From sequence record MK327931.1: a DNA stretch of 64,000 nt; one strand, 5' to 3'. This document shows positions 24,509 to 61,915 of the stretch, in pieces. Origin of the DNA: Escherichia phage vB_EcoM_G17. The notes under the pieces are model-generated. The model saw only the letters and a program-made list of their open reading frames with translations, did no database searches and was not told the origin of the DNA. The position numbers and the translations under genes were made by a program. Every line of letters begins with the position of its first letter. The stretch's first letter is position 1.

Positions 24509-24509
24509 A

Positions 24510-24713: not shown

Positions 24714-24937
24714 ATAGATAGCAGTACTAAGATTTTTGATAATTGTTTATTGCTATCCCCGCAGATGTTGCTGTGTAAAATACTCACAATGAGGGTATCA
24801 ATTGCATTGTTCATCATAAGGGTGCATCTTGGACTATTATAATTTTTTAGCTCAATTAGCCACGAACTATCCGAGAGAAATTCCCCGTACTCTAGTTCAT
24901 TTAGAGTATTGAGGTAGTACTTAAGAGTATTTGTCAT
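24710..24937 (-). CDS. MHKEYY-family small protein (member 17, first gene of operon)
   Basis: 75 aa; MTNTLKYYLNTL; AAGGAG SD; promoter TTGACA-N17-TACTAT upstream on minus strand. Confidence 0.55.
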   Translation of the reverse strand: MTNTLKYYLNTLNELEYGEFLSDSSWLIELKNYNSPRCTLMMNNAIDTLIVSILHSNICGDSNKQLSKILVLLSI

Positions 24938-25039
24938 GTGTAGTTCTCCTTATATTCCTTCTATAGTACACCAGTACTGAAAGGATGTCAAGGGTTTTCT
25001 TTATGGGGTAAATATGATATAATGAATAAGGAGGGATTT
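24938..25039. promoter_or_regulatory. divergent promoter region between the small-protein operon (minus) and the MLPF/RCC1-like array (plus)
   Basis: Minus: TTGACA-N17-TACTAT then AAGGAG; plus: TATAAT at about 25016 then AAGGAGGG and ATG at 25040. Confidence 0.55.
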
Positions 25040-43883: not shown

Positions 43884-43916
43884 ATTATAGCAAAAAGGGC
43901 TGACCGAAGTCAACCC
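43884..43916 (-). promoter_or_regulatory. hybrid terminator/promoter cassette: hairpin GGGTTGAC-ttcg-GTCAGCCC plus T-run whose stem carries -35 TTGACT; -10 TATAAT at 43884-43889 (rc)
   Basis: Read on minus strand; 18 nt spacer; one of about 13 copies of the ctgaccgaagtcaacc element. Confidence 0.6.
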
Positions 43917-43923
43917 TTTTGTT

Positions 43924-45271: not shown

Positions 45272-45336
45272 TTGTTACCTCTTGTGTTGATGAAATAATT
45301 ATAGCAAAAAGGGCTGACCGAAGTCAACCCTTTATG

Positions 45337-46551: not shown

Positions 46552-46618
46552 GTATTCATCCTCTCGTCTTGATGAAATAATTATAGCAAAAAGGGCTGAC
46601 CGAAGTCAACCCTTTTCT

Positions 46619-49023: not shown

Positions 49024-49368
49024 CTATCGATTCGGCATATTCTTTCGTAGTCGCAAGAGAAATTCAACCACTGACCATGTTGTAATGAAGGCAATATAAG
49101 TTGCAAGGAATCCAGTAAGAATAAATGCAACCAGCGTACTACCATTTGGGGAATCAGTTTTAATGCCGATGACACCATCGGCTACAGTGAAACATGTAGC
49201 CATTAATGTGTAACCTACGTACAACACAAAGAAAAACTCATTCTCCATTGAAGGATAGAAACGGTTAAACACTTTATAAAATTTAAAGTACAGTAGGATT
49301 ATACCAACAAAGGCATAGAATGTAAACAGTGTTGTTATAATATATGAGATTAGGTTCAAATTATACAT
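49024..49368 (-). CDS. small membrane protein, paralog of 49370..49717 and 49721..50059
   Basis: Shared motif (Y/F)FK(F/Y)(Y/K)..FNR(F/M)YP; hydrophobic; start trimmed to MYNLNL. Confidence 0.55.
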   Translation of the reverse strand: MYNLNLISYIITTLFTFYAFVGIILLYFKFYKVFNRFYPSMENEFFFVLYVGYTLMATCFTVADGVIGIKTDSPNGSTLVAFILTGFLATYIAFITTWSVVEFLLRLRKNMPNR

Positions 49369-49369
49369 A

Positions 49370-49717
49370 TCAACGCTCCGGTAGATTATCACGTAATGTT
49401 TTAATTCGATGATACATTTTCATACCAATATTACCAAAGATACCATATCCAAGTACTAAAATGTATGCGATAAGCATAGTAATAATTACTATAGTACCAA
49501 AACTATAATGTACACTACTGATACCCATTGTAGTTTCAACGATTATTTGAGAAACTGAAAGAATCAAAAGTACAACTACAATTGGATGATTTGGGTACAT
49601 TCGGTTGAACAACGTTTTGTACTTAAAGAAGCACAGTACTCCACCAAATAAGAAGTAAACAATGTAAATGCAAGCAACAGCATAGGCAAACATGTTAGTG
49701 TAATAAATCATTACCAA
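49370..49717 (-). CDS. small membrane protein, paralog
   Basis: FFKYKTLFNRMYP motif; hydrophobic. Confidence 0.55.
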   Translation of the reverse strand: MVMIYYTNMFAYAVACIYIVYFLFGGVLCFFKYKTLFNRMYPNHPIVVVLLILSVSQIIVETTMGISSVHYSFGTIVIITMLIAYILVLGYGIFGNIGMKMYHRIKTLRDNLPER

Positions 49718-49720
49718 TCC

Positions 49721-50059
49721 TTACTTTTCAGGGATATTAGAACGCCATATATCAATGCGATGAACTAGTCCAAAGAACAACCATACTGGAACGGCAGCTA
49801 TCATAACAACAAATGAAAACCCAGTCAAGACCGATACCAGATTTAATTCATCAGTACTATACCCACATATCAGTACTTCTAATATTCCCCACGTACATGC
49901 ACAAAACATCAAGAATGAAATTGGGGCATCATAGTAGATACGTTCATATAAAGTAGTGTATCGGAAGAATGCAATAATGTAGCAAAACATATAATACACC
50001 CAAACCAAAGATACTACATAAAATGATACTTTGTTTATTAATTCAAAATATTGTTCCAT
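49721..50059 (-). CDS. small membrane protein, paralog
   Basis: FFRYTTLYERIYY motif; hydrophobic. Confidence 0.55.
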   Translation of the reverse strand: MEQYFELINKVSFYVVSLVWVYYMFCYIIAFFRYTTLYERIYYDAPISFLMFCACTWGILEVLICGYSTDELNLVSVLTGFSFVVMIAAVPVWLFFGLVHRIDIWRSNIPEK

Positions 50060-50404: not shown

Positions 50405-51046
50405 TCAATAAAAAACTGGATCTTCTTCAGTAATTGGTATTTCTCTACGCACATCACACGAAAGAGGATCAGTAATGAATACATTCCCATCTTTATCCAT
50501 CATCACATTACTTGAATGAATGTCTGGTACAAAACGCCCGTGAAACTCTTTCATGATGTTAGCAGCGACCGTTGCAATAGCAATCTCTTCAGAATTTCCA
50601 CGCATATCATTCACTGAAGTTGCGTACTGACCAGCATGTGCATACGAATACAAATCTCCAATTTTAGTACTAACAAAGTCATCATAATTATTTTTTTGTT
50701 TAATTATAGGATAGTACTTGTCCATCTCATACCATCCAAAGTTTCCTTGTTCGTTTGCACTGTAGATCACAGGAAGAAACTTGGTTCCTGCGTTTTCAAT
50801 GCAGTACTTTGCATAAGCACGAAAACCATCCCAGCGTGAAGTGGTTACTTTAAATGCACTTCCAGGATAGTTTTTATGTTCAACTACTACAGAGTACATC
50901 CCCATTCCAAGCAAAGTAAGTCCAGCAGCTTTAACTTGTGGAAAGATTACGCGTTCAGCATAAGGAATATCAAACTCCATCGCACAACGAGTTTTTGATG
51001 GACGCAAAATGTCAATTAAAGTTTTGAATATTTCTTGCTTAGTCAT
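50405..51046 (-). CDS. protein-kinase-like fold protein (213 aa)
   Basis: LLGMGMYSVVV (Gly-rich loop), AFKV lysine, PDIHSSNVMMDKDGNVFITDP (D-x-H-x-x-N then D); start trimmed to MTKQEIF because upstream ATGs lie in the predicted -10 box. Confidence 0.5.
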   Translation of the reverse strand: MTKQEIFKTLIDILRPSKTRCAMEFDIPYAERVIFPQVKAAGLTLLGMGMYSVVVEHKNYPGSAFKVTTSRWDGFRAYAKYCIENAGTKFLPVIYSANEQGNFGWYEMDKYYPIIKQKNNYDDFVSTKIGDLYSYAHAGQYATSVNDMRGNSEEIAIATVAANIMKEFHGRFVPDIHSSNVMMDKDGNVFITDPLSCDVRREIPITEEDPVFY

Positions 51047-51115
51047 TACTTTATCCTCTGTAGTTAATACCAACATCATAACAAAAAAGGCTGACCGAAG
51101 TCAACCCTTTTATTA

Positions 51116-51535
51116 TCATTTACAGTTTTCTATAACTATTGCACGTTTTAGTATTTTACTTTCATAAACATACTTAAGATGACCTTCTTCACGAATACGA
51201 TTGAACACATATCCTAGTTTATCTTTTAGTACTGAAGCGGTATCAATGTCAAGATTAACTTCAACCCCTCCTGTTAATTTAACTTTATATGTAAAGCTAA
51301 AAGCATCACCAGATTCAACCAATGGGACTACTTGTTCATACGTATTCAACATAACTCGTTCATCATTAACTAAATTATATATTACTATATCACAAGTTTT
51401 TACCCCAATTTCCTCTAAGGTAGGAGCATTGTCTACTATAACATCTTTTACTGTATTAGCAACCTGTTTAGCATCTGCTGCATATACATTAAAACTAAAA
51501 AGTACTAAAATAATACTTAAAAAAATCTTTTTCAT
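51116..51535 (-). CDS. secreted protein (signal peptide), 139 aa
   Basis: N-terminus MKKIFLSIILVLFSFNVYAADAK. Confidence 0.55.
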   Translation of the reverse strand: MKKIFLSIILVLFSFNVYAADAKQVANTVKDVIVDNAPTLEEIGVKTCDIVIYNLVNDERVMLNTYEQVVPLVESGDAFSFTYKVKLTGGVEVNLDIDTASVLKDKLGYVFNRIREEGHLKYVYESKILKRAIVIENCK

Positions 51536-51544
51536 TATATATCC

Positions 51545-51874
51545 TTATTTTATTTTACACGTCATATCGGGTTGTGCTGGTTTATTATTTTTAAACGGAT
51601 TAGGTTTTTTATCTTTCTTTTTATCTTTTAAAGGTTTTTTGTCTTCTTTTTTATCTTTATCTTTGTCTTTTTTATTTTTATCAGGTTCAGAGGGAGTATT
51701 ACATTGTGCTGGGGGTTGATTAGTTGGAGTACAGCTATTGTCTGATGGGAGTATTACTTCTTTACAATTGTAAAATAGTAAACTTTTATTTGTGGTTAAA
51801 TTATGAAAACGATAGTTACGTTCATTATTATAATAAATTGTTTTAGTACTTTCAATGTCATTACACATTGCCAC
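51545..51874 (-). CDS. hypothetical protein with Lys/Asp-rich C-terminal tract
   Basis: Track ORF; KNKKDKDKDKKEDKKPLKDKKKDKK low-complexity tail. Confidence 0.45.
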   Translation of the reverse strand: MAMCNDIESTKTIYYNNERNYRFHNLTTNKSLLFYNCKEVILPSDNSCTPTNQPPAQCNTPSEPDKNKKDKDKDKKEDKKPLKDKKKDKKPNPFKNNKPAQPDMTCKIK

Positions 51875-51878
51875 GGAA

Positions 51879-52130
51879 TCACCGAAACTCTTTTTCTATT
51901 CCCATTACATCAGTCTTACGCTCAGATAGTATACCTGAAGTATATGAATCTTTGTTGTCAAACGCATTAAATCCAATAGTTCTGTCGGTGTCGTGTATTA
52001 TTCCTTTTGTGTATGAGGTAGTATAGAACTCCCCATTTCTGAAATCCTGCCTTGCTACGGAGCAATGATAATCTGCACCATAAGCAGTACTGGAAAATAA
52101 TACAATTCCAAATATAATATATTTTTTCAT
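51879..52130 (-). CDS. secreted protein (signal peptide), 83 aa
   Basis: Track ORF 51879..52205 trimmed to MKKYIIFGIVLFSSTAYGADY; GAGGGA SD. Confidence 0.5.
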   Translation of the reverse strand: MKKYIIFGIVLFSSTAYGADYHCSVARQDFRNGEFYTTSYTKGIIHDTDRTIGFNAFDNKDSYTSGILSERKTDVMGIEKEFR

Positions 52131-52201
52131 TGTAATCCCTCTTCTTAATTCCTCTTTTGTATTTACAAAAAAAGGCTGACCGAAGTCAACCTTTAGTTTT
52201 A

Positions 52202-53746
52202 TCATTTACCGTATTTGCTCATGATGTCCTTTTCCCAATGAGTTACGTTACCGTTATCGTAATCTTTAAAGGAATTATCAAGAGTAGTTAATGCATATTC
52301 GTATGCTTCAGGTGATTCAATGTCAACATCATCAGCACCATTTACTAAATCAGTCCATGCTTTTTGTAGTTTACGAGCATTTTTACCAACATTACTTTTA
52401 ATCCAACTAATGTTTTTGTTGATACTCTTATTATCAGCACCAGCTTTTTTACCAATATCGGATATCCACATCATTAGCTTTTGGAGTTCATGAATGGAGT
52501 TGTCGTTCATTTCACGATCTTTAGCCAATTCTGCTTCCATGCCATCAGTATCAGTACCATCTTTAGAACCTACATCAATTCCATGTTTAGCTAATAGTTT
52601 ACCAAGTTCAAAGAATGCTGCCTCAGCAGGGAAGTCATAACCTTTGTCTTTGTAGTTGTTCCATGCACTATCAAACTCATCTACAAATCGGTTGGCATAA
52701 TCTGGATTGTCCACGAGAGCTTTGTACACTGCCATTGCATGTTCAAATCCTTCTTTGTCAGAACCAAACTCTCCCATTTCTGGACGATGAATGTAACCAT
52801 CCATATCAACAGTATCAGGTAAATCATCATGAGATGTTTCAGCATCTTTCTGGTCAACTGCACCTTCTTCATCTGCACGAACTAAGTAACCATCTTTTGA
52901 TACTTTCTCACCATGTTCAGCTTCATACTTTTTCATAGTATTGAATGCAGAATTCATAACAGTGATGAATCGAGACTTCTCACCTGGTGAGTAAGAATCT
53001 AATGCTGCTTTAATAGCATCATGTACTAATTGAATCTTATCATCTTTGCCTTCAAGACGATTTTCTAACTTAGCAAGAACATTCTTAACTTGCTGGGCGT
53101 TAGCACGGTCTTCTTTACCTATACGGTTAACAGTATGGAGGATGCTTTCAAGACTTGCTTCTTCAGCAGTCGCTTCTTCTTGTCCTTCAAGTGCACGCAT
53201 GATAGTACTGAATACTTCAGTTGGTTCAGTACTGGTATTTCCACTCATTGCATCAAGTACAGCTTGTGCTTTGACTTTTAATTCTTCTTTAGGTACAGAT
53301 TGCAATTCTTTCACAATACCTTGGATAAGTTGTGGTTTATTAGCAAAAATCTTACCTAACTTATCAGACAATTCTTTGACAGGGTTAACCGCCTTTGGTG
53401 CTTCTTGTTTTGGTTCTTCTTTCGCAGGAGAAGACTTTTCTTTTTCTTCACGTTCCATATCAGCTAGGCGTTGTTTTTGTGTAGCATTAAGAAGTCCCAA
53501 TGAATTAACATAACGTAGCTTTTCTAGCTCAGTCATGTTCTCAGTACTCTTAACTTCACCTGCTTCTGCGTTTGCTTTACCAGCTAGACCAGTTCCTTGG
53601 TTACGTGATCCACGTGAACCTTGACCTGCTTGATAACTATTTGGTCGGCGGTTGCGTTCACTCCATTTATCCGAGTGACCAGCCATGTTACCACCATTTT
53701 TATCAGTAAAATTACTTGGCATTTGATTTCTCTCCATAGATTTCAT
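52202..53746 (-). CDS. large charged hypothetical protein (about 506-514 aa)
   Basis: Longest ORF in window; Lys/Glu/Asp-rich; start ambiguous (53746 or 53722); shares motifs with 53992..54375. Confidence 0.65.
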   Translation of the reverse strand: MKSMERNQMPSNFTDKNGGNMAGHSDKWSERNRRPNSYQAGQGSRGSRNQGTGLAGKANAEAGEVKSTENMTELEKLRYVNSLGLLNATQKQRLADMEREEKEKSSPAKEEPKQEAPKAVNPVKELSDKLGKIFANKPQLIQGIVKELQSVPKEELKVKAQAVLDAMSGNTSTEPTEVFSTIMRALEGQEEATAEEASLESILHTVNRIGKEDRANAQQVKNVLAKLENRLEGKDDKIQLVHDAIKAALDSYSPGEKSRFITVMNSAFNTMKKYEAEHGEKVSKDGYLVRADEEGAVDQKDAETSHDDLPDTVDMDGYIHRPEMGEFGSDKEGFEHAMAVYKALVDNPDYANRFVDEFDSAWNNYKDKGYDFPAEAAFFELGKLLAKHGIDVGSKDGTDTDGMEAELAKDREMNDNSIHELQKLMMWISDIGKKAGADNKSINKNISWIKSNVGKNARKLQKAWTDLVNGADDVDIESPEAYEYALTTLDNSFKDYDNGNVTHWEKDIMSKYGK

Positions 53747-53808
53747 TTTTTCTCTATGTCTATATTTATAGTATAAAGAAAAGGCTGACCGAAGTCAACC
53801 TTATTTTG

Positions 53809-53922
53809 TTACTTAGATTGTTCTTGTGCAGGTGGATTTACTTTTTGATCCACTACATAGAATACACCACCAACCAGTACTGCGGCGATGAGTGCAGCAA
53901 CTACAAATTTCAAACCTTGCAT
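53809..53922 (-). CDS. hypothetical membrane peptide (37 aa)
   Basis: Hand-translated (MQGLKFVVAALIAAVLVGGVFYVV...). Confidence 0.3.
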   Translation of the reverse strand: MQGLKFVVAALIAAVLVGGVFYVVDQKVNPPAQEQSK

Positions 53923-53991
53923 ATATGATACCTCAGTTATATTGAGAAGTTATGATACAACAAAGGGCTGACCTTAGTCAACCCCTTTTTA

Positions 53992-54375
53992 TTACTTCTT
54001 GAACTTATGTTTTTCACTTTCGATTGCATTCACGATTTCATCATGAATTTTACGAAGATTGTGAGTTTTCTTGAGAGAATCATGCAATGCACGGAATGCA
54101 GAGTGTACAGTTGCTTTAAAGTGCTCTTTAGGAGTTACTTTAAGTTTCTCGATAATATCACGTACATAGATTGGGTGATCTTCAAACACACGGTTTAGCT
54201 CGTGGCCTAGAGACTCTAGACTAAACGCTTTTTCACGTGAAGGACGATCATGTGCAAGACTTTGGTCAGGTTTTAGAAGACCTAGTGAATCTAGATATTT
54301 GTGCTTATGTGCATTGTCTAGACCAGAAATATCAACATCATGGGATGGATCTTTCTTATTCCATTTATCAACCAT
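53992..54375 (-). CDS. hypothetical protein (127 aa), related to N-terminal part of 52202..53746
   Basis: KYLDSLGLL and LKVTPKEHFKA resemble YVNSLGLL and LQSVPKEELKV in the large protein. Confidence 0.5.
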   Translation of the reverse strand: MVDKWNKKDPSHDVDISGLDNAHKHKYLDSLGLLKPDQSLAHDRPSREKAFSLESLGHELNRVFEDHPIYVRDIIEKLKVTPKEHFKATVHSAFRALHDSLKKTHNLRKIHDEIVNAIESEKHKFKK

Positions 54376-54490
54376 TTTTATAACTCCTATAAGAGATAAA
54401 TTTTACTATAATATTTATAGTTCCTGTGTCATTTATATGAACTGACATAGAAAATTATATCATATTAAAAATGGTTGTCCCAAAGTTAAA

Positions 54491-54934
54491 TCAGTACTGA
54501 TCAAGTTCAGATGTAAAAATGAATGCATCCATGTCTTCCAACGTAAGTTTTAAGTCTGGTACGTACTTAAGAATAACGCACTCTGGCTTCTTAATAGCAG
54601 CTTGATAAGCAGCAATGGCAAGGGATTCCAACTGCTGTGCTGTATAATTTTTACGTTCTGCATTAAAAACTTTGTTTTTGATATCACCACCTGGGAGTTT
54701 TTCAAACTCACGCATAACTGCGGTAAGAACATCGTCAGCAGTGTTACTATATACCCATTGGGGTAATTGCATTACATTATAAATCACACCACTATCATCC
54801 ATCAAAGAGATCCATTTATATCCATCACTCGCACTAAACAAACGCCCTTTTAGTACTGTGTTATTAGTTAAATTTACAAATGCAAAAATATCTTGTTCGT
54901 TAAGTTCAATACTATTAACATTTACCCAACTCAT
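54491..54934 (-). CDS. hypothetical protein (147 aa)
   Basis: Track ORF 54491..54964 trimmed to MSWVNVNS (GGGGA SD). Confidence 0.55.
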   Translation of the reverse strand: MSWVNVNSIELNEQDIFAFVNLTNNTVLKGRLFSASDGYKWISLMDDSGVIYNVMQLPQWVYSNTADDVLTAVMREFEKLPGGDIKNKVFNAERKNYTAQQLESLAIAAYQAAIKKPECVILKYVPDLKLTLEDMDAFIFTSELDQY

Positions 54935-54947
54935 TACGATTCCCCAT

Positions 54948-55520
54948 TCATAAATCACGAACAATATTCATTAAACACAATTTAGGTTTTATAGCATTCA
55001 ACACCCATATGCATTCTTTGTAAGTAGCTATTATATCATCTAAATGCTCAGTTACAATGCTTTCTTGAAAATATTCTTCATCATTGAGCTTTGCTAATTT
55101 AGTAACATCACACGTAGGCACTATAGGTCTGGATTGTACACCCATTCCATTATTGATATTAGTGAAATGTACAAAATGGTACTTCACAACACCTTTATCT
55201 AGATTTACTATACATGACAAGTTTTCCAACTCAGTTAGTTCTTTACTACAAGTAACATTAATGAAACCAGTATTATAGGCTCTATAATCATCTACTGATA
55301 TCTCAAAATCATTACGCTGAAATATAAGTGAAATGAGTTTGTCCAGTGGTTTTACATTCATATATTTTAATGAATTTACGTATGATACTTCAATCTTAGA
55401 TGAAATTATTTTTTTACTAAGTGCAGTCAATTCTTTATTAGATTTACCTGTTAATACTATAGGTTTAAACCTAGAACTCTTATTTTTCTTTGATACTTTA
55501 AAACGACCTTTACGATTCAT
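54948..55520 (-). CDS. hypothetical protein (190 aa)
   Basis: Track ORF 54948..55544 trimmed to MNRKGRF (GAGGA SD). Confidence 0.55.
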   Translation of the reverse strand: MNRKGRFKVSKKNKSSRFKPIVLTGKSNKELTALSKKIISSKIEVSYVNSLKYMNVKPLDKLISLIFQRNDFEISVDDYRAYNTGFINVTCSKELTELENLSCIVNLDKGVVKYHFVHFTNINNGMGVQSRPIVPTCDVTKLAKLNDEEYFQESIVTEHLDDIIATYKECIWVLNAIKPKLCLMNIVRDL

Positions 55521-55527
55521 ATTTTCC

Positions 55528-55749
55528 TCAATTAATAATTTCACATTTAACGTGTGGTTTATATAACATAATTAACCCATTTTTAAGTACAATGATTGTT
55601 CCTCGGTCAGTAATAGAAACGTTTTTAATTATACTTTTTTTATATGTTTCAACATATTTCTCTTCGTAATTTATACATTTAACATATTCTTTTTGTTTAG
55701 CACTTACAACAGTACTGAATAATATCAGTACAAGTACTATATATTTCAT
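55528..55749 (-). CDS. secreted protein (signal peptide), 73 aa
   Basis: MKYIVLVLILFSTVVSAKQ. Confidence 0.5.
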   Translation of the reverse strand: MKYIVLVLILFSTVVSAKQKEYVKCINYEEKYVETYKKSIIKNVSITDRGTIIVLKNGLIMLYKPHVKCEIIN

Positions 55750-55801
55750 TACTATACCTTATAAACAAAAAGGAATTCATTTAAGAATTCCTATTTTACA
55801 A

Positions 55802-56095
55802 TCATTTATCTAACATACCATTGTGTAAACGTTCATATACTTCAGTTCGACGCAAATTCACAATATCTTCTGCGTATTTTAATGTAAATGCCCATGCTTT
55901 TGGATGTACGTTAAGCTTCATACGAATTCGATTTTTCATCAACTCTCCACTTAAACGAATAAATTCGTGTACACCACGACTACCGTATTCAGTAATTAAA
56001 TCATTAATGTACATATCACGAAGAGTTTCATCTGCACATTCTTTAACCATTTCTACGTCAGCGACGATGCTTTCATTAACTGAAGTACTGATCAT
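55802..56095 (-). CDS. hypothetical protein (97 aa)
   Basis: Track ORF. Confidence 0.5.
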   Translation of the reverse strand: MISTSVNESIVADVEMVKECADETLRDMYINDLITEYGSRGVHEFIRLSGELMKNRIRMKLNVHPKAWAFTLKYAEDIVNLRRTEVYERLHNGMLDK

Positions 56096-56106
56096 TTTAA
56101 TTTACC

Positions 56107-56373
56107 TTATTTAAATTCGACTGTAATTTTATCACCTTCAACTACGAACTTACAGTTGTAGCGACGTGCCATATCCATGTACATATGCTCAGAGTACCAG
56201 GGAACATCAATAATCGGATGCTCTGCGTATTGTAGAACTTCACGGTCGCCAACTGTAGTGATGACGAAAGAAATGTTCATCTCTCGTAAAAACAGTTCAG
56301 CACCAGGAGAACGATTAATAAATTCAGTATCATTACGTAAAGTAAATCCATTATATTGTAATTTAAGCTTCAT
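56107..56373 (-). CDS. hypothetical protein (88 aa)
   Basis: Track ORF. Confidence 0.5.
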   Translation of the reverse strand: MKLKLQYNGFTLRNDTEFINRSPGAELFLREMNISFVITTVGDREVLQYAEHPIIDVPWYSEHMYMDMARRYNCKFVVEGDKITVEFK

Positions 56374-56387
56374 ATGTTATCCTCTAT

Positions 56388-56732
56388 TCAATACCATTCT
56401 TTAAAACCATTAAGTTCGGCTATGTGAGTAATTATAACACATATAACATTCAGGTCAAGTATAATTTGATCATAATTTAATTTTATACGATCATCATTAT
56501 ATGCCCTAAAGACTACATCGTAATCAAAGAAATTTGCGTTTTCATCATTCATTGAAACGATTCGGTATCTACGTCTTCCATCTGTATTGAATATTGTTAA
56601 ACACTGTTGAAACTTTCTCATTAACTGTTTAGATAGGATATTATAATATTCAATATCTTTTTGTGAATTACGTGGGTCATCAGGAAGATAGAATGAAACA
56701 AATTTCTTTAATTCTATTTGAGTTTTATCCAT
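56388..56732 (-). CDS. hypothetical protein (114 aa)
   Basis: Track ORF. Confidence 0.5.
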   Translation of the reverse strand: MDKTQIELKKFVSFYLPDDPRNSQKDIEYYNILSKQLMRKFQQCLTIFNTDGRRRYRIVSMNDENANFFDYDVVFRAYNDDRIKLNYDQIILDLNVICVIITHIAELNGFKEWY

Positions 56733-57165
56733 ATATTACCTCATGTGTTTCTCTTTTACTTTGTCGGAACTCATCCTTTGCTTCCTTAACTGACATGATA
56801 CGAACTAATTTAGCACTACCGCAATAGTACTGAACCTGATTACGACCAATGTCTACATGGTGGTCTGGAACTTCATATACAGATATAGCAAACCCAGCAC
56901 GATGCAATTTACCTAAGTCCATAGTGAAGAATCTGAACAAATCTTTCAAACTTTGACAGCCAAATACCCATCCACTTTTGATTGAATAGATCCCATCCTC
57001 AGTTGGTTCAGGTTGGAATTGAGAAGGTGTAGTCATGAGCATACGGTCAAATCCATTTTTAGTACTGTATCTGGTTGAATACCGTGCAAACGGACCTACA
57101 GTTCGTGCAGGATCTAAGTTAGGTTCAATGTAACTAAATTTAAGTTCAAAACGATATACATACAT
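56725..57165 (-). CDS. hypothetical protein (146 aa)
   Basis: Track ORF; terminator/promoter cassette upstream (57205-57232). Confidence 0.55.
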   Translation of the reverse strand: MYVYRFELKFSYIEPNLDPARTVGPFARYSTRYSTKNGFDRMLMTTPSQFQPEPTEDGIYSIKSGWVFGCQSLKDLFRFFTMDLGKLHRAGFAISVYEVPDHHVDIGRNQVQYYCGSAKLVRIMSVKEAKDEFRQSKRETHEVIYG

Positions 57166-57219
57166 AATTAAAATCCTCTAATTTATTAAGAGAATTATAA
57201 CAAAAAAGGCTGACCGAAG

Positions 57220-57411
57220 TCAACCTTTGTTTTGAAGTTCTTGAACTAATTGTCGTACTTCGTTAATATTTTTACACTGCTTTACAGTGAAGTAATCATA
57301 CTTACGACCATAGGTTCTTGGGTCATCACCTTCCATATACTGCTGCACATCAAAGATTTGTAAGTAGGGATGCTGCATAACACGAATATTATCACTTTGA
57401 TAAATCAACAT
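57220..57411 (-). CDS. hypothetical protein (63 aa)
   Basis: Track ORF 57220..57465 trimmed to MLIYQSD (AAGGA SD). Confidence 0.45.
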   Translation of the reverse strand: MLIYQSDNIRVMQHPYLQIFDVQQYMEGDDPRTYGRKYDYFTVKQCKNINEVRQLVQELQNKG

Positions 57412-57415
57412 AATA

Positions 57416-57766
57416 TCAATCCTTATATTTACACAAGCCACCAAAACTAGTTTCTTTAGCACCACGACGCATCATAACTAATTTAGCATATTGTGTGCCA
57501 TTACTATCTTCATATACATCTACTTCAATAAACGCTAAGAAGTTAGGGTCTGTGTCGTTAGAAAACTCAGTGAAGCTAATGTCGCCTACTGTATGCTCTT
57601 TAACAAACGTATATGATTGTCCATCAATATATACAATATCTCGATCGTCACTATCACCTTGATAGATATGTTTAATATTACCATCGGTACAAACTAAACC
57701 TTCCAATGGTTCAGCATATGACAATCCACACATTAACATACATACAAAAAATAAAATAATTTTCAT
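57416..57766 (-). CDS. secreted protein (signal peptide), 116 aa
   Basis: MKIILFFVCMLMCGLSYAEP. Confidence 0.55.
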   Translation of the reverse strand: MKIILFFVCMLMCGLSYAEPLEGLVCTDGNIKHIYQGDSDDRDIVYIDGQSYTFVKEHTVGDISFTEFSNDTDPNFLAFIEVDVYEDSNGTQYAKLVMMRRGAKETSFGGLCKYKD

Positions 57767-57768
57767 GA

Positions 57769-58146
57769 TTATTTTCCTCCAACGTTAAGTGATTTCTTGT
57801 ACTGATATTCTTTATAAGTACTATACCATATATCACCAACGTAAATCAAGTACCACGTAGCAGGATAAAGAGCCAATCCAGTACTGATATATACGAACTT
57901 TTGGTCAAGGACATCAAATACATACAGAAGGAAAGTTACTCCCATAATGCAAGAACAAATTAACCACAAGTTATAAGCAATCGAATCGCAAGCAAAAATA
58001 GAATCAAGCTTAGAAATTAGGACATATTTGTTTGTTAAAATGAAATGAATTACTGCAACTAAACAATATCCTGCCATAAAAATAGAAATTAAAAAAGACA
58101 GAATAATTGGAATATTCAACAACAAAAGTAAAATAGTGTTTACCAT
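57769..58146 (-). CDS. small membrane protein (125 aa)
   Basis: Hydrophobic. Confidence 0.55.
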   Translation of the reverse strand: MVNTILLLLLNIPIILSFLISIFMAGYCLVAVIHFILTNKYVLISKLDSIFACDSIAYNLWLICSCIMGVTFLLYVFDVLDQKFVYISTGLALYPATWYLIYVGDIWYSTYKEYQYKKSLNVGGK

Positions 58147-58157
58147 TTTTTTAAGTC

Positions 58158-58517
58158 CTATATTTCACAGTGTAAGTTCAATTTATCTATATCTAGGTCA
58201 CGGCGTACCGATGAGTCCAAGTAAATTACTATATAGATATCACCATTACCAGTTCTTGGGTCTACAATTAATATTACGTTTGCTAATGTACCAGAATCAT
58301 CTCTATAAGTCGAGATTTTTTTATTACCGATAATACTTTCTACTTTAAAACGATAAATCACACCATCAACAACTATATTTTTACCATTTCTAGGGTCGTT
58401 AGTCAATACATGCCACGTTCCCTTAGTACTACGACAATATGTTTCTGCTGCTGCACCATAACTAAAACATGAAAATAATGCACACACAAGTGCTATTAAT
58501 TTTATATAACTCTTCAT
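58158..58517 (-). CDS. secreted protein (signal peptide), 119 aa
   Basis: MKSYIKLIALVCALFSCFSYGAAAETYC. Confidence 0.55.
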   Translation of the reverse strand: MKSYIKLIALVCALFSCFSYGAAAETYCRSTKGTWHVLTNDPRNGKNIVVDGVIYRFKVESIIGNKKISTYRDDSGTLANVILIVDPRTGNGDIYIVIYLDSSVRRDLDIDKLNLHCEI

Positions 58518-58595
58518 AACAAACCTCTAACGAGAAATACTTCTGTACTATATATATGTACAGAAGTATTTAATACTATAGAGATATTTTCACTG

Positions 58596-58922
58596 TTACA
58601 TCTTATTCGTGAACTTGAATTTGATAATATCAATCCAAATTTTAACATTTCCTGCAAATAGTGCTTTGATTAGCCACATAATTGCAACAAAGTTCTCAAC
58701 TAAATCCAAAGTTTTAACTACTGCACCGAGTGGGAAGATAAAACTCAAAACCCATACAATTACTGAAACCACAACGACTGTATAGAAAATACGCACAATC
58801 GGTGAATCAAGCATAAACAACTCAGAGAACTCTTTTTTATCATTATCATCAGTAATAAAGCATTCGTAAACCAGAAGCCAAATCAGAATTAAAGACGGAA
58901 TTGAAATTAGTACTGATAGCAT
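58596..58922 (-). CDS. small membrane protein (108 aa)
   Basis: Hydrophobic; consensus promoter upstream (about 58960-59000). Confidence 0.55.
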   Translation of the reverse strand: MLSVLISIPSLILIWLLVYECFITDDNDKKEFSELFMLDSPIVRIFYTVVVVSVIVWVLSFIFPLGAVVKTLDLVENFVAIMWLIKALFAGNVKIWIDIIKFKFTNKM

Positions 58923-58979
58923 ATTTTTTACCTCAAGTTTAAGTGTTAAGTTTCAGACTACAGGAACCATTATACAGTA

Positions 58980-59222
58980 CTACGAACGTTTGTCAACATT
59001 TGTTTCTTCAATAAGCATAAGATAACTTAACACGAAGAGTAATACCGAAATAATATCAATAACTGTAAAGCTCACTGGAATGATAATAGACACCAGTACT
59101 AATGCCACGTTTAGCAAGAATACAGTAGTGAGATCTACCATCGTTCGTCTAGTGGCTAATGCCACTAGTGTAGGATAGAACATAAACAATAGTGCAACAA
59201 CAAAACTTAGTACTAGATACAT
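58980..59222 (-). CDS. small membrane protein (80 aa)
   Basis: Hydrophobic. Confidence 0.5.
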   Translation of the reverse strand: MYLVLSFVVALLFMFYPTLVALATRRTMVDLTTVFLLNVALVLVSIIIPVSFTVIDIISVLLFVLSYLMLIEETNVDKRS

Positions 59223-59875
59223 TTCTTTTTCACCTTAATAAAATTATAACACAAAACCACATCAACATCTGGTTCATCATACAAGTACTCAAAACGTTCT
59301 TTACTTCGTTTAGTACCGATATACTCACCATTCTTATGCCAACGCCATCCACCATCCTTTGGTTGTTCAGACTTAAGTACTGGGTGATAGCACAGGACAA
59401 TTTCTTCTGGACCTTCAATTAGGTTCTTGTACTTATTCATAATCTGTTCAAGCGTATCTGCTACACCATAAGATGGATGCATAAGATAAGACTCAGGACG
59501 TGGACGTCCACTTGGTAGAATATCATCAGTACTATTAAAGATAGCACGGAAGTCTTCAGATGTGTATAGACTTCCATCTTCATGGATCATTGGGTATTCA
59601 TCCACTACATCGTAATCAGTGAAGTGTTCAATTGCATGTCCAGGTCGATAACCTGCAAGGATACCTGCATGTTTAGTCTGGACAATAGTCATAACAGATG
59701 TATTGTTGTTTACAGTTGGATCATGAATTTCAGCCCAGAACGGATGATTTGGGTCAAAAGTTGCATTTACCAATGTACACTCACCAATGTAATCAAACAT
59801 AGTTTCCTTGAAGTTTAAAGAAACCCCACGTAATGCCCAGTCAGGTGAAGTGATGAAATTAAGATTAACTAACAT
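59213..59875 (-). CDS. hypothetical protein (about 220 aa)
   Basis: Track ORF 59213..59893 begins at a TTG codon; first ATG (MLVNLNF, 59875) has GAGGA SD. Confidence 0.55.
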   Translation of the reverse strand: MLVNLNFITSPDWALRGVSLNFKETMFDYIGECTLVNATFDPNHPFWAEIHDPTVNNNTSVMTIVQTKHAGILAGYRPGHAIEHFTDYDVVDEYPMIHEDGSLYTSEDFRAIFNSTDDILPSGRPRPESYLMHPSYGVADTLEQIMNKYKNLIEGPEEIVLCYHPVLKSEQPKDGGWRWHKNGEYIGTKRSKERFEYLYDEPDVDVVLCYNFIKVKKKCI

Positions 59876-59906
59876 AAGTATCCTCAGATGCAATTTTTTG
59901 ATGTGG

Positions 59907-60122
59907 TTATTGTATCAAAGATGTATCTATTTGTACAACATTTATTGTAACTATTTCGTACATATAGTCAGGTGCATTGAACTCAGCATACCACTCAATG
60001 ATCTCACAGGCAGCATCAACTTGGTTGTTCGCATTAACACGTCTTGCATAGGTACTAGACATTTTATATCTACCATTTACATACACGTTATATACACCAT
60101 GACACCACCACATCTTAGTCAT
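59907..60122 (-). CDS. hypothetical protein (71 aa)
   Basis: Track ORF. Confidence 0.5.
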   Translation of the reverse strand: MTKMWWCHGVYNVYVNGRYKMSSTYARRVNANNQVDAACEIIEWYAEFNAPDYMYEIVTINVVQIDTSLIQ

Positions 60123-60333
60123 TTATGCTAGGCCATACTTTGTATTGTAAGTTCTGGTATTGAAATTTACCAATTTCATTTTTCTTACGGAATGATTCAT
60201 CTACTTGAATTTCCGCATCGTACTGACCATCAGCCTGTACAACGTACTTAAATTCTTCTACGTGTGAAAAACGTTGACCTTCACCTTCTGGTTTATAGAC
60301 TTGTACTAAACCTTCAACTAGATATAAATTCAT
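60115..60333 (-). CDS. hypothetical protein (72 aa)
   Basis: Track ORF. Confidence 0.5.
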   Translation of the reverse strand: MNLYLVEGLVQVYKPEGEGQRFSHVEEFKYVVQADGQYDAEIQVDESFRKKNEIGKFQYQNLQYKVWPSIND

Positions 60334-60336
60334 TTA

Positions 60337-60558
60337 TCATTCCTCATCACTTTCAGTTAGCATAATGCTATGTACAGTTTCCACATAGCGGTGTGTTTTG
60401 GGTGTGTTATACTTTGTAATTTCATCAAACAATTTAAACAGTGCATCTACTTCACTAAGAGCACGAATGAATACATCCATCTTGGTGACTACTCTGGAAA
60501 ACCCGCGTATGTTATTAAATTCAGAGACGTGTTCATACACAACATAGTATCTATTCAT
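60337..60558 (-). CDS. hypothetical protein (73 aa)
   Basis: Track ORF. Confidence 0.5.
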   Translation of the reverse strand: MNRYYVVYEHVSEFNNIRGFSRVVTKMDVFIRALSEVDALFKLFDEITKYNTPKTHRYVETVHSIMLTESDEE

Positions 60559-61073
60559 ATATTAAAAAGTTCCATGAATTCATTGAATAAAGAAGTTCTA
60601 ATGCACATAACAAATTCAAAGTCAACATCGATGGTGTCAAGTAGTTTGAACAACTTTGGTACTAATGGATCATTCACCTCAAAGTTATGAATCAAACTTT
60701 GTTGAAACACATTTTCTTCAGTACTATAATCAATAACAAAATATTCAGCAATACCAGGTGGTGTGTAAACATCATATAAAATATGGCGGTGATGATTTGT
60801 TTTAGAACTAGGGGAATATATAAGTTCTATTTCATAAGATTTATCAGCACTGCGTGCGTAACAAACAATATCAGTACTTGTTATTTCTGAACCATCACTT
60901 CTCTCTGAAAAACAAACATCAGCATAGCGTTTTCCAGAGAGATTCAAAAGATCATGAGTTGTTTTACCATAACAGAAATCAGTTTCAATGCGTATCACAT
61001 CTTGATATTCAATTGGTCTTGTATCGCGGCGTTCACGATTAAACACTAATTTCAACAACTCATTAATATCCAT
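60555..61073 (-). CDS. hypothetical protein (172 aa)
   Basis: Track ORF. Confidence 0.6.
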   Translation of the reverse strand: MDINELLKLVFNRERRDTRPIEYQDVIRIETDFCYGKTTHDLLNLSGKRYADVCFSERSDGSEITSTDIVCYARSADKSYEIELIYSPSSKTNHHRHILYDVYTPPGIAEYFVIDYSTEENVFQQSLIHNFEVNDPLVPKLFKLLDTIDVDFEFVMCIRTSLFNEFMELFNI

Positions 61074-61273
61074 TACTTAGTCTCAATAACCTTTAGATTT
61101 ACAAAGTCACCTTTAACCTTCATACATTTGTATTCAGTGCGAGTTTCATCACCAGCATCACGAGGCCAATGAGTTGCAGAGTAACACTGATCAGGTGTTT
61201 TATATACACCTTCACCAACGGTGCGAGTGATTTCACCATTAGTTAGTACTACTGCAAGATATAAAGTAAACAT
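61073..61273 (-). CDS. hypothetical protein (66 aa)
   Basis: Track ORF. Confidence 0.5.
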   Translation of the reverse strand: MFTLYLAVVLTNGEITRTVGEGVYKTPDQCYSATHWPRDAGDETRTEYKCMKVKGDFVNLKVIETK

Positions 61274-61424
61274 ATTAGTCCTTAGAATAATTTATTAATA
61301 ATAATAGCACCCAAACCAAGTACTGCAATAATTGCAGATACCCACATTACCGCGTTCACTGCACCTGTGAGTTCTTTATCAAACTCTCGGCACTTCTTGC
61401 GGTAATCTTCCCACTCTTTGTTAT

Positions 61425-61640
61425 TCACACTACCACTCCTAATAGGTCGGTAGCTTTCTTGAGAACTACATCAATCGTTTCCAGTACTGCACCTTTGTGT
61501 TCAATTGATACAATATTATTATAAGTATCAAGGTCCAAGTACTCCATATATTCTGTTTTGAATACACGAACTTCAGTACTGGTGATTTTAATATCACAAC
61601 CTTTATCCCAAATAACCTGCATCATTTCATTGGTAGTCAT
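61425..61640 (-). CDS. hypothetical protein (71 aa)
   Basis: Track ORF. Confidence 0.5.
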   Translation of the reverse strand: MTTNEMMQVIWDKGCDIKITSTEVRVFKTEYMEYLDLDTYNNIVSIEHKGAVLETIDVVLKKATDLLGVVV

Positions 61641-61915
61641 TATTCAACCTTATCATAAACAAGTTTGTGTGTGCTTAGTACTTTGTTGTGATGTCCAGGG
61701 CATTCATATACATACAATCGCTCCTGACGTTTTTCCCAACCACCACAGATACGACCTGATTGTGTACATATTTCATACTCGTTAATAAAAGACTTGCCTG
61801 TGAATGTACAATCCTGACGAACTAAGTCTTTTGCACTAAACCTGCCGTCATCATTACATGCTGTAAGAAACATTGTACAGAATACAAAGACAACTGTCAA
61901 TAGTTTTTTAATCAT
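61640..61915 (-). CDS. putative lipoprotein (91 aa)
   Basis: MIKKLLTVVFVFCTMFLTAC: signal peptide ending in lipobox-like LTAC. Confidence 0.55.
   Translation of the reverse strand: MIKKLLTVVFVFCTMFLTACNDDGRFSAKDLVRQDCTFTGKSFINEYEICTQSGRICGGWEKRQERLYVYECPGHHNKVLSTHKLVYDKVE

What the first reader, a model, noticed from the sequence alone, without database searches (positions are those of the whole stretch)
51116..58517. Cluster of small secreted proteins and lipoproteins
At least eight ORFs in 51116-62528 begin with signal-peptide-like N-termini (51116, 51879, 55528, 57416, 58158) or lipobox-like LTAC (61640, 62277), interleaved with small membrane proteins. In some phages, lipoproteins block the phage's own receptor (superinfection exclusion, lysis-inhibition of progeny rebinding). 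The number here is high and may indicate extensive envelope remodelling.
Basis: partly seen in the sequence, partly recalled or inferred. Interest (0 to 1): 0.5.

Follow-up and report, generated by a model that had tools for sequence, protein, structure and literature searches.

The report
Early envelope-targeted protein cluster, jumbo phage
A jumbo E. coli phage packs seven small proteins with genuine export signals, plus several small membrane proteins, into about 11 kb of its early-gene region; they very likely act in the host's periplasm and inner membrane, but they are unrelated to the known receptor-blocking lipoproteins and their function is still unknown.

Summary
The window is Escherichia phage Sharanji (Asteriusvirus, 350 kb). 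Seven minus-strand genes in 51116-62528 carry canonical export signals: five Sec-type (gp145, gp147, gp153, gp159, gp161) and two lipobox (gp172, gp174). They are interleaved with at least five small membrane proteins. That is 7 of 30 genes here against about 3 in the other 100 kb scanned (scan-statistic p~0.001).

The cluster is not one system:
- **gp163-gp159** is a membrane/periplasm module (three polytopic membrane proteins and two paralogous 8-stranded beta-barrel periplasmic proteins) kept in order in Klebsiella phage RaK2.
- **gp174** belongs to a large unnamed lipoprotein family (phrog_902) found in 584 phage genomes. Its "Cor" label elsewhere comes only from the signal peptide, and its Asp+2 favours inner-membrane retention.
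- **gp172** is a lipoprotein restricted to jumbo phages.
- **gp145, gp147 and gp153** are fast-evolving orphans.

Perfect sigma-70 promoters and a T7 0.7-like kinase mark this as an early host-takeover region.

Receptor blocking by lipoproteins is not supported. An early envelope-level role of the T4 Imm/Sp type (superinfection exclusion or protection of the infected cell) is the best guess, and it is untested. Interest is moderate.

The parts
51116..51535 (-). gp145, a 139-aa Sec-type secreted protein (cleavage about VYA|AD). The mature part is 120 aa with 2 Cys. Found only in Asteriusvirus and fast-evolving (41% identity between clades).
51879..52130 (-). gp147, an 83-aa Sec-type secreted protein. 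The true start is the internal ATG at 52130. 67% identity between clades.
53809..53922 (-). gp149, a 37-aa single-pass membrane protein
55528..55749 (-). gp153, a 73-aa Sec-type secreted protein. The mature part is 56 aa with one Cys near each end. 51% identity between clades.
57416..57766 (-). gp159, a 116-aa periplasmic beta-barrel protein and paralog of gp161, with one Cys near each end of the mature part
57769..58146 (-). gp160, a 125-aa polytopic inner-membrane protein conserved in RaK2
58158..58517 (-). gp161, a 119-aa periplasmic protein. The AF2 model is an 8-stranded beta-barrel (pLDDT 85).
58596..58922 (-). gp162, a 108-aa polytopic membrane protein and first gene of the unit driven by the promoter at 58996
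58980..59222 (-). gp163, an 80-aa 3-TM membrane protein conserved in RaK2 (46%)
61282..61428 (-). gp170, a 48-aa protein with a C-terminal TM segment
61640..61915 (-). gp172, a 91-aa lipoprotein (LTA|C-N-D-D) with 4 further Cys. Found only in Asteriusvirus and a few related jumbo phages. 99% conserved between clades.
62277..62528 (-). gp174, an 83-aa lipoprotein (LTA|C-D-A). It belongs to the widespread phrog_902 family, with invariant lipid Cys, C38 and C57 and conserved LP, CPN and GK motifs.
62930..62958 (-). Perfect sigma-70 promoter (TTGACA-17-TATAAT) upstream of gp175-gp174-gp173-gp172 and the following genes, which overlap and appear translationally coupled
58969..58996 (-). Perfect sigma-70 promoter (TTGACA-16-TATAAT) upstream of gp162-gp161-gp160-gp159-gp158
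57205..57228 (-). Repeated hairpin AAAGGTTGACTTCGGTCAGCCTTT plus a T-run. It looks like a terminator ending the gp162-gp158 unit, and it carries an embedded -35 (TTGACT) followed by TATAAT.
52171..52194 (-). The same hairpin element, between gp148 and gp147
51087..51108 (-). The same hairpin element (1 mismatch), after gp145 and before the kinase gene gp144
53781..53802 (-). The same hairpin element, between gp149 and gp148

Best explanation
This is a stretch of the early, host-RNA-polymerase-transcribed small-gene region of an Asteriusvirus jumbo phage. It is enriched in proteins sent to the host envelope. It is a collection of at least four independent units, not one system.

1. A conserved module, gp163-gp162-gp161-gp160-gp159, made of three polytopic inner-membrane proteins and two paralogous periplasmic 8-stranded beta-barrel proteins, each with one Cys near each end. 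It probably forms an inner-membrane/periplasm assembly.
2. gp174, a small disulfide-containing lipoprotein of a very widespread phage family. It is probably tethered to the periplasmic face of the inner membrane (Asp+2).
3. gp172, a 4-Cys lipoprotein restricted to jumbo phages and probably routed to the outer membrane.
4. Three fast-evolving periplasmic orphans, gp145, gp147 and gp153.

Shown: the export signals, the clustering, the module's synteny across genera, the barrel fold, the consensus promoters and the lack of homology to known families.

Inferred: soon after infection these proteins are made and act at the inner membrane and periplasm to protect or reprogramme the infected cell's envelope. 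The most likely role is exclusion of secondary infection or resistance to attack from outside, in the manner of T4 Imm/Sp, rather than plugging an outer-membrane receptor.
For: - **Export signals and Shine-Dalgarno motifs:**
- **Even cysteine counts in the mature parts:**
- **Signals retained in divergent orthologs:**
- **Clustering:** significant.
- **Early timing:** 15 perfect sigma-70 promoters, all on the coding strand, against 0.08 expected. Three lie in or next to the cluster. The neighbouring gp144 is a T7 0.7-like kinase. In the related phage CBB, RpoD-like promoters mark the early region of short ORFs (PMC5259590).
- **Module conservation:** the order gp164-163-162-161-160-159 is kept in RaK2 at 29-46% identity.
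- **Fold:** the gp161 model has pLDDT 85 and is an 8-stranded barrel. The gp159 ortholog from slurp01 has the same fold. Paralogy is supported.
- **gp174 family:** 584 phage records and 271 cluster representatives. All 69 aligned members have a canonical lipobox, 30/69 have Asp+2, and all have 2 or 4 Cys.
- **Evolutionary rate:** the Sec-type proteins and their membrane partners evolve faster than their cytoplasmic neighbours (41-78% against a median of about 87%; Mann-Whitney p=5e-4). This fits proteins working at a host or phage interface.
- **Locus turnover:** vB_Ec-M-J has gained another secreted protein and two membrane proteins at this locus.
Against: - There is no functional evidence of any kind. 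No exported protein matches a characterised family in Pfam, NCBIfam, PHROGs, PADLOC or PDB.
- The barrel fold is generic. Foldseek against PDB gives nothing below E=0.07.
- Early timing is inferred from promoter consensus only. No transcriptome was found for this phage group.
- Secreted proteins tend to evolve fast anyway, so the rate difference is not specific to an arms race.
- The module is conserved from Escherichia to Klebsiella phages, so it could equally serve a housekeeping role in infection.
- Asp+2 followed by Ala+3 may be only a partial Lol-avoidance signal (from memory of the E. coli sorting literature), so the location of gp174 is not certain.
- The gp174 structure model is poor (pLDDT 63).
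Confidence: 0.45

Rival explanations
1. One reading: the lipoproteins (and perhaps the secreted proteins) bind and block the phage's own outer-membrane receptor from the periplasmic side, like T5 Llp or T1/phi80 Cor. This would prevent superinfection and stop progeny being lost on cell debris.
For: - gp172 and gp174 are true lipoproteins of Llp/Cor size, in an early region.
- gp172 has Asn at +2, which is compatible with outer-membrane sorting.
- One relative annotates the gp174 ortholog as Cor.
- There are weak PHROG Cor and NCBIfam TrbK hits.
Against: - The Cor hit disappears without the signal peptide, and the TrbK hit is below its cutoff and covers the signal peptide.
- Neither gp172 nor the gp174 family profile matches any PDB chain.
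- gp174 has Asp+2, the inner-membrane retention signal.
- The gp174 family is shared by phages of Escherichia, Salmonella, Vibrio, Acinetobacter, Aeromonas and Erwinia, which cannot share one receptor. In those phages it lies in replication/early modules, not beside receptor-binding genes.
- Both lipoproteins are 92-99% conserved between Asteriusvirus clades.
Confidence: 0.1
2. The two beta-barrel proteins gp159 and gp161 are periplasmic inhibitors of peptidoglycan hydrolases, analogous to PliC/MliC. They would neutralise the tail lysozymes of incoming phages, or the phage's own enzymes, giving T4 Sp-like exclusion or resistance to lysis from without.
For: - They are small periplasmic 8-stranded barrels with a Cys near each end.
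Against: - Foldseek does not list PliC/MliC in its top 50, and nothing there is significant.
- There is no Pfam MliC hit.
- The columns conserved in alignment A2 do not include the inhibitor loop motifs of MliC/PliC (compared with the motifs as I remember them).
- Identity to these structures is 4-5%.
Confidence: 0.1
3. The genes are lysis machinery: spanins (the lipoproteins), holin/antiholin (the membrane proteins) or lysis-inhibition sensors (the periplasmic proteins).
For: Lysis cassettes combine small membrane proteins, lipoproteins and periplasmic domains. Two of 69 gp174-family members give faint hits to the Rz1-like LysC model (E=0.036).
Against: - The genes sit behind strong sigma-70 (early-type) promoters, next to a host-takeover kinase.
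- Neither lipoprotein has an adjacent or embedded partner with an N-terminal TM segment and a periplasmic coiled coil. gp173 and gp175 have no TM segment.
- There is no C-terminal TM segment as in unimolecular spanins.
- The mature lipoproteins are not proline-rich and have paired cysteines.
- The endolysin of this phage group lies elsewhere in the genome (121Q gp532, per PMC5259590).
Confidence: 0.05
4. There is no common role. The exported proteins are a mixed set of unrelated accessory genes, for example modulators of host transport, envelope stress or cell division, or counter-measures against envelope-based defences. They lie together only because small non-essential early genes accumulate in this plastic region between terminator/promoter cassettes.
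For: - The seven proteins fall into at least five unrelated sequence families and at least four transcription units.
- Conservation differs widely, from 41% to 99%.
- Content at the locus differs between clades: the kinase is lost, and one secreted and two membrane proteins are gained in vB_Ec-M-J.
- Repeated hairpin/promoter elements flank the units.
Against: The clustering of export signals is stronger than chance even within the small-gene early regions. The gp163-gp159 module is a coherent conserved unit. This rival overlaps the best explanation and differs only in denying a shared exclusion or protection role.
Confidence: 0.27
5. Artefact: the hydrophobic N-termini arise by chance in AT-rich small ORFs, or from wrong start codons.
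For: - Starts are annotated inconsistently. Sharanji gp147 is annotated 25 aa too long, and 121Q gp188 and gp190 are annotated 9-10 aa too short.
- The loose version of the classifier over-calls.
Against: - The strict classifier gives a single false positive across six frames of 114 kb.
- All seven have Shine-Dalgarno motifs.
- The signals are conserved in orthologs down to about 30% identity.
- The lipobox Cys is invariant in 69/69 family members.
- Mature parts have paired cysteines.
Confidence: 0.03

Closest known systems
T4 Imm and Sp (early inner-membrane superinfection-exclusion proteins of a virulent myophage)
   Same: They are small, early-expressed proteins of a large virulent myophage that are inserted in or anchored to the inner membrane and face the periplasm. 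They act after adsorption, not at the receptor. This is the functional analogy I favour for the gp163-gp159 module and for gp174.
   Different: There is no sequence relationship: no window protein hits Pfam Imm_superinfect. The present module has five genes, including two soluble periplasmic barrels. Function is untested.
T5 Llp and T1/phi80/N15 Cor (receptor-blocking lipoproteins)
   Same: They are small early lipoproteins of phages, with a type II signal peptide and disulfide-bonded mature domains of 60-70 aa.
   Different: The mature domains show no similarity. gp174 carries Asp+2 (inner-membrane retention), whereas Llp is in the inner leaflet of the outer membrane. There is no linkage to receptor-binding genes. 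The family spans phages with unrelated hosts and receptors.
PHROG family phrog_902 (unknown function)
   Same: gp174 is a member: E=2.6e-14 for the full length and 1.1e-7 for the mature part.
   Different: The family has no assigned function and no Pfam model. This work adds that it is a lipoprotein family with an invariant lipid Cys, two invariant Cys, and frequent Asp+2.
PliC/MliC/PhiA/ACP periplasmic lysozyme inhibitors and other calycin-like 8-stranded barrels
   Different: There is no sequence or motif similarity and no Pfam hit. Foldseek finds nothing significant. Many unrelated barrels score equally well.

Membership tests
Sec-type (SPase I) signal peptide | A positively charged n-region, an uncharged hydrophobic h-region of 9-16 aa, small residues at -3/-1 within 15-30 aa of the start, and a non-membrane mature part | tested here: met
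   gp145, gp147, gp153, gp159 and gp161 pass a strict rule-based test, with a single false positive in six frames of 114 kb. The signals are conserved in orthologs. SignalP was not available.
Bacterial lipoprotein (SPase II) signal | Lipobox [LVI][ASTVI][GAS]C at the end of a signal peptide | tested here: met
   gp172 has FLTA|C and gp174 has LLTA|C. The Cys is invariant and a canonical lipobox is present in 69/69 gp174-family members. Ten members hit Pfam LPAM_1.
Cor superinfection-exclusion lipoprotein (phrog_1119) | Similarity of the mature domain to the Cor profile | tested here: not met
   The full-length hit at E=0.0046 covers residues 1-48. With the signal peptide removed there is no hit at E<=1.
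Cor superinfection-exclusion lipoprotein (phrog_1119) | Blocks the phage's own outer-membrane receptor (FhuA for T1/phi80) | not testable with these tools
   This needs adsorption assays. Indirect evidence is against it: Asp+2 and a family shared by phages of unrelated hosts.
T5 Llp | Sequence similarity to Llp | tested here: not met
   The gp174-family profile and mature gp172 match no PDB chain at E<=1 and E<=5. Llp structures are reported in PMC9586334, but I did not separately confirm that the Llp chain is in the searched copy. No annotated PHROG matches at E<=1.
T5 Llp | Gene adjacent to the receptor-binding protein gene | tested here: not met
   The neighbours are small hypothetical early genes. 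In other phages the gp174 homolog lies among polymerase, ligase and helicase genes.
T4 Imm (Pfam PF14373 Imm_superinfect) | Pfam match above the gathering score | tested here: not met
   No window membrane protein hits PF14373. The 'immunity' genes annotated in vB_Ec-M-J reach only 15.7 bits against a cutoff of 27.9 and are absent from Sharanji.
Two-component or unimolecular spanins | An outer-membrane lipoprotein paired with an adjacent or embedded inner-membrane partner that has an N-terminal TM segment, or a lipoprotein with a C-terminal TM segment | tested here: not met
   gp173 and gp175 have no TM segment, and mature gp172 and gp174 have none either. The promoter context is early-type.
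MliC/PliC lysozyme inhibitors (Pfam PF09864) | Small periplasmic 8-stranded beta-barrel | tested here: met
MliC/PliC lysozyme inhibitors (Pfam PF09864) | Sequence-family match and conserved inhibitory loop motifs | tested here: not met
   No Pfam hit and no PDB sequence hit. The conserved columns of A2 lack the motifs (compared with the motifs as I remember them). Foldseek does not rank the family.
MliC/PliC lysozyme inhibitors (Pfam PF09864) | Inhibits lysozyme | not testable with these tools
   An enzyme assay is required.
phrog_902 | Profile match over the mature domain | tested here: met
   E=2.6e-14 for the full length and 1.1e-7 for the mature part. Homologs align with invariant C16, C38 and C57.

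The most novel reading that the evidence does not exclude
Two components are new kinds of phage envelope effectors.

(a) gp163-gp159 may be a previously unrecognised early inner-membrane/periplasm complex, conserved across RaK2-like jumbo phages. It would comprise three polytopic membrane proteins and two disulfide-stapled periplasmic barrels, and would protect the long-lived infected cell from secondary phage attack or from envelope damage.

(b) The phrog_902 lipoproteins (gp174) may be a pan-phage family, present in more than 580 genomes of unrelated virulent phages. They would be tethered to the inner membrane and target a periplasmic or inner-membrane component conserved across Gammaproteobacteria, giving a generic mechanism that does not depend on the receptor.
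Probability: 0.2. Interest if true: 0.6.

Novelty: new variant of a known kind. Interest (0 to 1): 0.35.

Why it matters
More than 80% of jumbo-phage genes have no known function, and how these phages handle the host envelope during a long infection is not understood. This work picks out a short list of experimentally tractable candidates that are almost certainly exported.

The candidates include a module conserved from Escherichia to Klebsiella jumbo phages, and a lipoprotein family present in hundreds of virulent phages, among them Felixounavirus and other genera used in therapy. If any of them confers superinfection exclusion, that would bear on the design of phage cocktails.

The work also corrects annotation. 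The "Cor superinfection exclusion" and "immunity to superinfection" labels spreading through automated annotation of these genomes are not supported. Several start codons are also wrong in ways that hide the signal peptides.

Tried and rejected
- **Family and structure-sequence searches.** Pfam, NCBIfam, PADLOC and PDB sequence searches of all exported and membrane proteins gave nothing above threshold. Pfam scans of the non-exported operon partners gave no functional handle.
- **Cor identity for gp174.** Rejected after removing the signal peptide.
- **TrbK hit.** Rejected: it is below the cutoff and lies over the signal peptide.
- **Wider homologs of gp145 and gp161.** Only Asteriusvirus relatives were found, plus RaK2-like phages at 31% for gp161.
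- **Structure of gp174.** Prediction from a 69-sequence alignment gave a poor model (pLDDT 63, pTM 0.36), so I ran no fold search on it.
- **Fold searches.** The afdb50 library was unavailable. Foldseek against PDB for gp161 found nothing significant. BFVD returned only uncharacterised phage proteins, including the gp159 ortholog.
- **Duplicated two-gene cassette (membrane plus barrel).** The barrels are paralogs, but the membrane partners gp160 and gp162 show no detectable similarity. This is neither supported nor excluded.
- **Spanin and lysis-cassette reading.** Rejected on architecture and promoter type.
- **Literature.** Searches found no work on export signals, lipoproteins or superinfection in Asteriusvirus, Sharanji or fEgEco12.
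- **Whole-genome scan.** I stopped after 114 of 350 kb.

Full report
**Identity of the window.** The region is 100% identical to Escherichia phage Sharanji (OR545507.1). This is an Asteriusvirus jumbo myophage of 350 kb, and window position equals record position minus 15777. It is 96-97.5% identical to 121Q, PBECO4 and slurp01, and about 84% identical to a second clade that includes vB_Ec-M-J. All genes from about 40 kb to 64 kb lie on the minus strand. Almost every gene in the region is annotated 'hypothetical protein' in every record. The Sharanji paper (PMC11895373) does not mention signal peptides, lipoproteins or superinfection.

**Check of the observation.** Five are Sec-type:
- gp145, 51116-51535
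- gp147, 51879-52130
- gp153, 55528-55749
- gp159, 57416-57766
- gp161, 58158-58517

Two carry a lipobox: gp172 (61640-61915, FLTA|CNDD) and gp174 (62277-62528, LLTA|CDAS).

All seven start with ATG behind a Shine-Dalgarno-like motif. I wrote a strict rule-based classifier. It requires a positive n-region, an uncharged h-region of 9-16 residues with mean Kyte-Doolittle score of at least 2.2, the -3/-1 rule or a lipobox at residues 14-30, and no TM segment in the mature part. I applied it to every ATG+SD ORF in all six frames. It recovers exactly these seven in the 64-kb window, plus one more at 14451-14750 and one antisense false positive. It finds only two candidates in the following 50 kb of the genome.

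Seven of 30 genes against one of 118 gives Fisher p=5e-5. A permutation scan statistic, which corrects for choosing the region after the fact, gives p of about 0.0006-0.0014.

Further support comes from three observations:
- Six of the seven mature proteins have an even number of cysteines. gp153, gp159 and gp161 each have one Cys near each end of the mature chain.
- The signals are kept in orthologs that have diverged to 41-78% (vB_Ec-M-J) and about 30-42% (RaK2).
- Small membrane proteins are indeed interleaved: gp149, gp160, gp162, gp163 and gp170.

Two corrections apply. There are seven cleavable signals, not 'at least eight'. The 51879 ORF has its signal at the N-terminus only when it starts at the internal ATG at 52130. 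That start is used in 121Q, and it is favoured by a Shine-Dalgarno motif and by a terminator/promoter hairpin lying inside the longer ORF. SignalP and LipoP were not available.

**Expression context.** The window holds 15 perfect TTGACA-N16/17-TATAAT promoters. All are on the coding strand and in intergenic or gene-end positions, against 0.08 expected in shuffles. Most share the extended motif TTGACA-N9-AGTACTGTATAAT. Three lie in or next to the cluster:
- 63306
- 62958, upstream of gp175-gp174-gp173-gp172 and the following genes, which overlap at their start and stop codons
- 58996, upstream of gp162-gp161-gp160-gp159-gp158

A 22-nt hairpin, GGTTGACTTCGGTCAGCC plus a T-run, occurs eight times on the same strand. 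None is expected by chance. It contains a -35-like TTGACT followed by a -10. Copies at 57227, 53802, 52193 and 51108 delimit units: the gp162-gp158 unit ends at 57227, and gp147-gp146-gp145 lie between 52193 and 51108.

The gene after the last hairpin, gp144, is a T7 gp0.7-like protein kinase. In the related phage CBB, RpoD-like promoters concentrate in the region of short hypothetical ORFs, which the authors interpret as the early host-takeover region. That genome of 554 ORFs was annotated with only four putative lipoproteins (PMC5259590).

I therefore infer that the cluster is transcribed early by host RNA polymerase. This is inference from consensus sequences, not from a transcriptome.

**The cluster is heterogeneous.** Pairwise comparison shows that the seven exported proteins belong to at least five unrelated families. 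Only gp159 and gp161 are related to each other.

- the C-terminal domain of a PBP-like protein, Cap15, PagL, NspA and Tp0751
- the periplasmic lysozyme-inhibitor group (PliC at 7.7 and 7.5, PhiA at 7.1, ACP at 6.6, MliC/YdhA at 6.5)
- avidins

Foldseek against PDB finds nothing significant (best E=0.07, TM<=0.55) and does not rank PliC/MliC. The fold is thus a generic calycin-like barrel. Foldseek against BFVD returns the gp159 ortholog of slurp01 at E=3e-5, which confirms that the paralogs share the fold.

In Klebsiella phage RaK2 (genus Alcyoneusvirus), the order gp164-gp163-gp162-gp161-gp160-gp159 is kept, at 46, 46, 29, 31, 30 and 42% identity. The TM segments and the signal peptides are also kept. 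This is therefore an old, conserved module of three polytopic membrane proteins and two periplasmic barrels.

Between the two Asteriusvirus clades, its members are among the most diverged genes in the region: gp160 42%, gp162 59%, gp161 62% and gp159 78%, against a median of about 87% for cytoplasmic neighbours.

**(ii) gp174.** tblastn finds homologs in 584 phage records. These include Felixounavirus, Certrevirus, 114-kb Vibrio phages, Eneladusvirus, Aeromonas Straboviridae and Obolenskvirus, and all are annotated hypothetical. An exhaustive HMMER search finds 271 cluster representatives.

Alignments of 8 and 69 members show several features:
- an invariant lipobox Cys and two further invariant Cys
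- near-invariant P30, P58, G69 and K70
- a canonical lipobox in 69/69 members
- Asp at +2 in 30/69 (Glu in 9)
- always 2 or 4 Cys in the mature part

The family matches phrog_902 (unknown function) and has no Pfam model.

The 'Cor superinfection exclusion protein' label on the vB_Ec-M-J ortholog rests on a PHROG hit of E=0.0046 over residues 1-48. That hit disappears when the signal peptide is removed, whereas phrog_902 stays at 1.1e-7. A TrbK hit is below its cutoff and also lies over the signal peptide.

In other phages the gene sits among polymerase, ligase, helicase or small early genes, never beside receptor-binding genes.

Asp+2 is the E. coli Lol-avoidance signal (established knowledge). 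It argues for retention in the inner membrane, although Ala at +3 may weaken the signal (from memory). The AF2 model is poor (pLDDT 63), so I did not use it.

**(iii) gp172.** This lipoprotein has four further cysteines and is confined to Asteriusvirus and a few related jumbo phages (Munch, SE_PL and fENko-Kae01 at 39.5%). It is 99% conserved between clades. With Asn at +2 it is probably routed to the outer membrane.

**(iv) gp145, gp147 and gp153.** These are orphans of the Asteriusvirus lineage. They are the fastest-evolving genes here, at 41, 67 and 51% identity. Taken together, the five Sec-type proteins are more diverged than 24 non-membrane neighbours (Mann-Whitney p=5e-4).

The locus is also plastic. 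vB_Ec-M-J lacks the kinase, and it carries an extra secreted protein (EcMJ_541, again with one Cys near each end) and two extra polytopic membrane proteins. Its 'immunity to superinfection' labels fall below Pfam thresholds.

**Interpretation.** What is shown:
- The proteins are exported or membrane-inserted, and they are clustered.
- They sit behind strong host-type promoters.
- One module is conserved across genera.
- None belongs to a characterised family.

What is inferred is that they act early at the inner membrane and periplasm. The best functional analogy is T4 Imm/Sp-type protection or exclusion, which acts after adsorption. I put about 45% on this overall picture, and most of the uncertainty is in the function.

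It remains only a weak possibility for gp172.

**Novelty and interest.** Clusters of small membrane and periplasmic early proteins are familiar from T-even and T5-like phages, so the kind is known. The families here are new or uncharacterised. Two findings are new and useful: the cross-genus module, and the recognition that phrog_902 is a widespread lipoprotein family with frequent Asp+2. Without functional data the interest is moderate (0.35).

Noticed in passing
window 1784-20303, 48378, 58996, 62958 and 63306 (minus strand): There are fifteen perfect sigma-70 consensus promoters (TTGACA-N16/17-TATAAT), all on the coding strand, against 0.08 expected. Most share an extended motif, TTGACA-N9-AGTACTGTATAAT, often followed by a GGGGAGA...TCTCCCC hairpin in the 5' UTR. 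This looks like the early-promoter family of this phage group.
   Followed up: partly
window 57206-57227, 53781-53802, 52172-52193, 51087-51108, 46592-46613, 45310-45331, 43896-43917 and 10770-10791 (minus strand): A repeated 22-nt hairpin, (A/G)GGTTGACTTCGGTCAGCC(C/T)T, followed by a T-run occurs eight times, with none expected by chance. The stem contains a -35-like TTGACT, and a -10 follows 17-18 nt later. This amounts to a combined terminator/promoter cassette between gene units. It recalls (from memory) the promoter/stem-loop cassettes described in hyperplastic regions of T4-type phages.
   Followed up: partly
window 40239-43019 and 49024-50059 (minus strand): Two tandem arrays, of seven and three genes, encode 104-141-aa proteins that mostly have the same three-TM architecture. 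Only some pairs are detectably similar (42340/42678 at 47%; gp140/141/142 at E of 1e-5 to 1e-10). This looks like an expanded, fast-diverging family of small membrane proteins.
   Followed up: partly
window 14451-14750 (minus strand): This is the only other clear Sec-type secreted protein in the window: 99 aa, MKIAIIALALSVSSFAVNA|SL, with one Cys near each end of the mature chain. It is weakly similar (E=0.003) to EcMJ_541, the extra secreted protein that vB_Ec-M-J carries inside the cluster.
   Followed up: partly
window 51879-52205; L001 (121Q) gp188 and gp190: Start codons are annotated inconsistently. Sharanji gp147 is annotated 25 aa too long, which buries the signal peptide. 121Q gp188 and gp190 are annotated 9-10 aa too short, which truncates the signal peptides of the gp161 and gp159 orthologs.
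   Followed up: yes
L002 (vB_Ec-M-J) 14022-14273, 4907-5170 and 6959-7195: The automated labels 'Cor superinfection exclusion protein' and 'immunity to superinfection' are not supported. The Cor hit is driven by the signal peptide. The Imm_superinfect hit is 15.7 bits against a cutoff of 27.9.
   Followed up: yes
window 50405-51079 (minus strand): gp144 is a T7 gp0.7-like protein kinase (phrog_15752, E=1e-97). It is annotated as hypothetical in Sharanji and is absent from the vB_Ec-M-J clade at this locus.
   Followed up: partly
window 51545-51868 (minus strand): gp146 lies between two secreted proteins. It has no signal peptide, five cysteines and a long Lys/Asp-rich low-complexity tail (KDKDKDKKEDKKPLKDKKKDKK). 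Its function is unknown.
   Followed up: no
window about 19100-25000: A gene-poor stretch of about 6 kb lies at the strand switch. Only four short or medium CDS are annotated there, and it contains a 16-bp tandem repeat of 5 copies at 19784-19865. No tRNA and no Rfam family was found. It could be a regulatory or replication-related region.
   Followed up: partly
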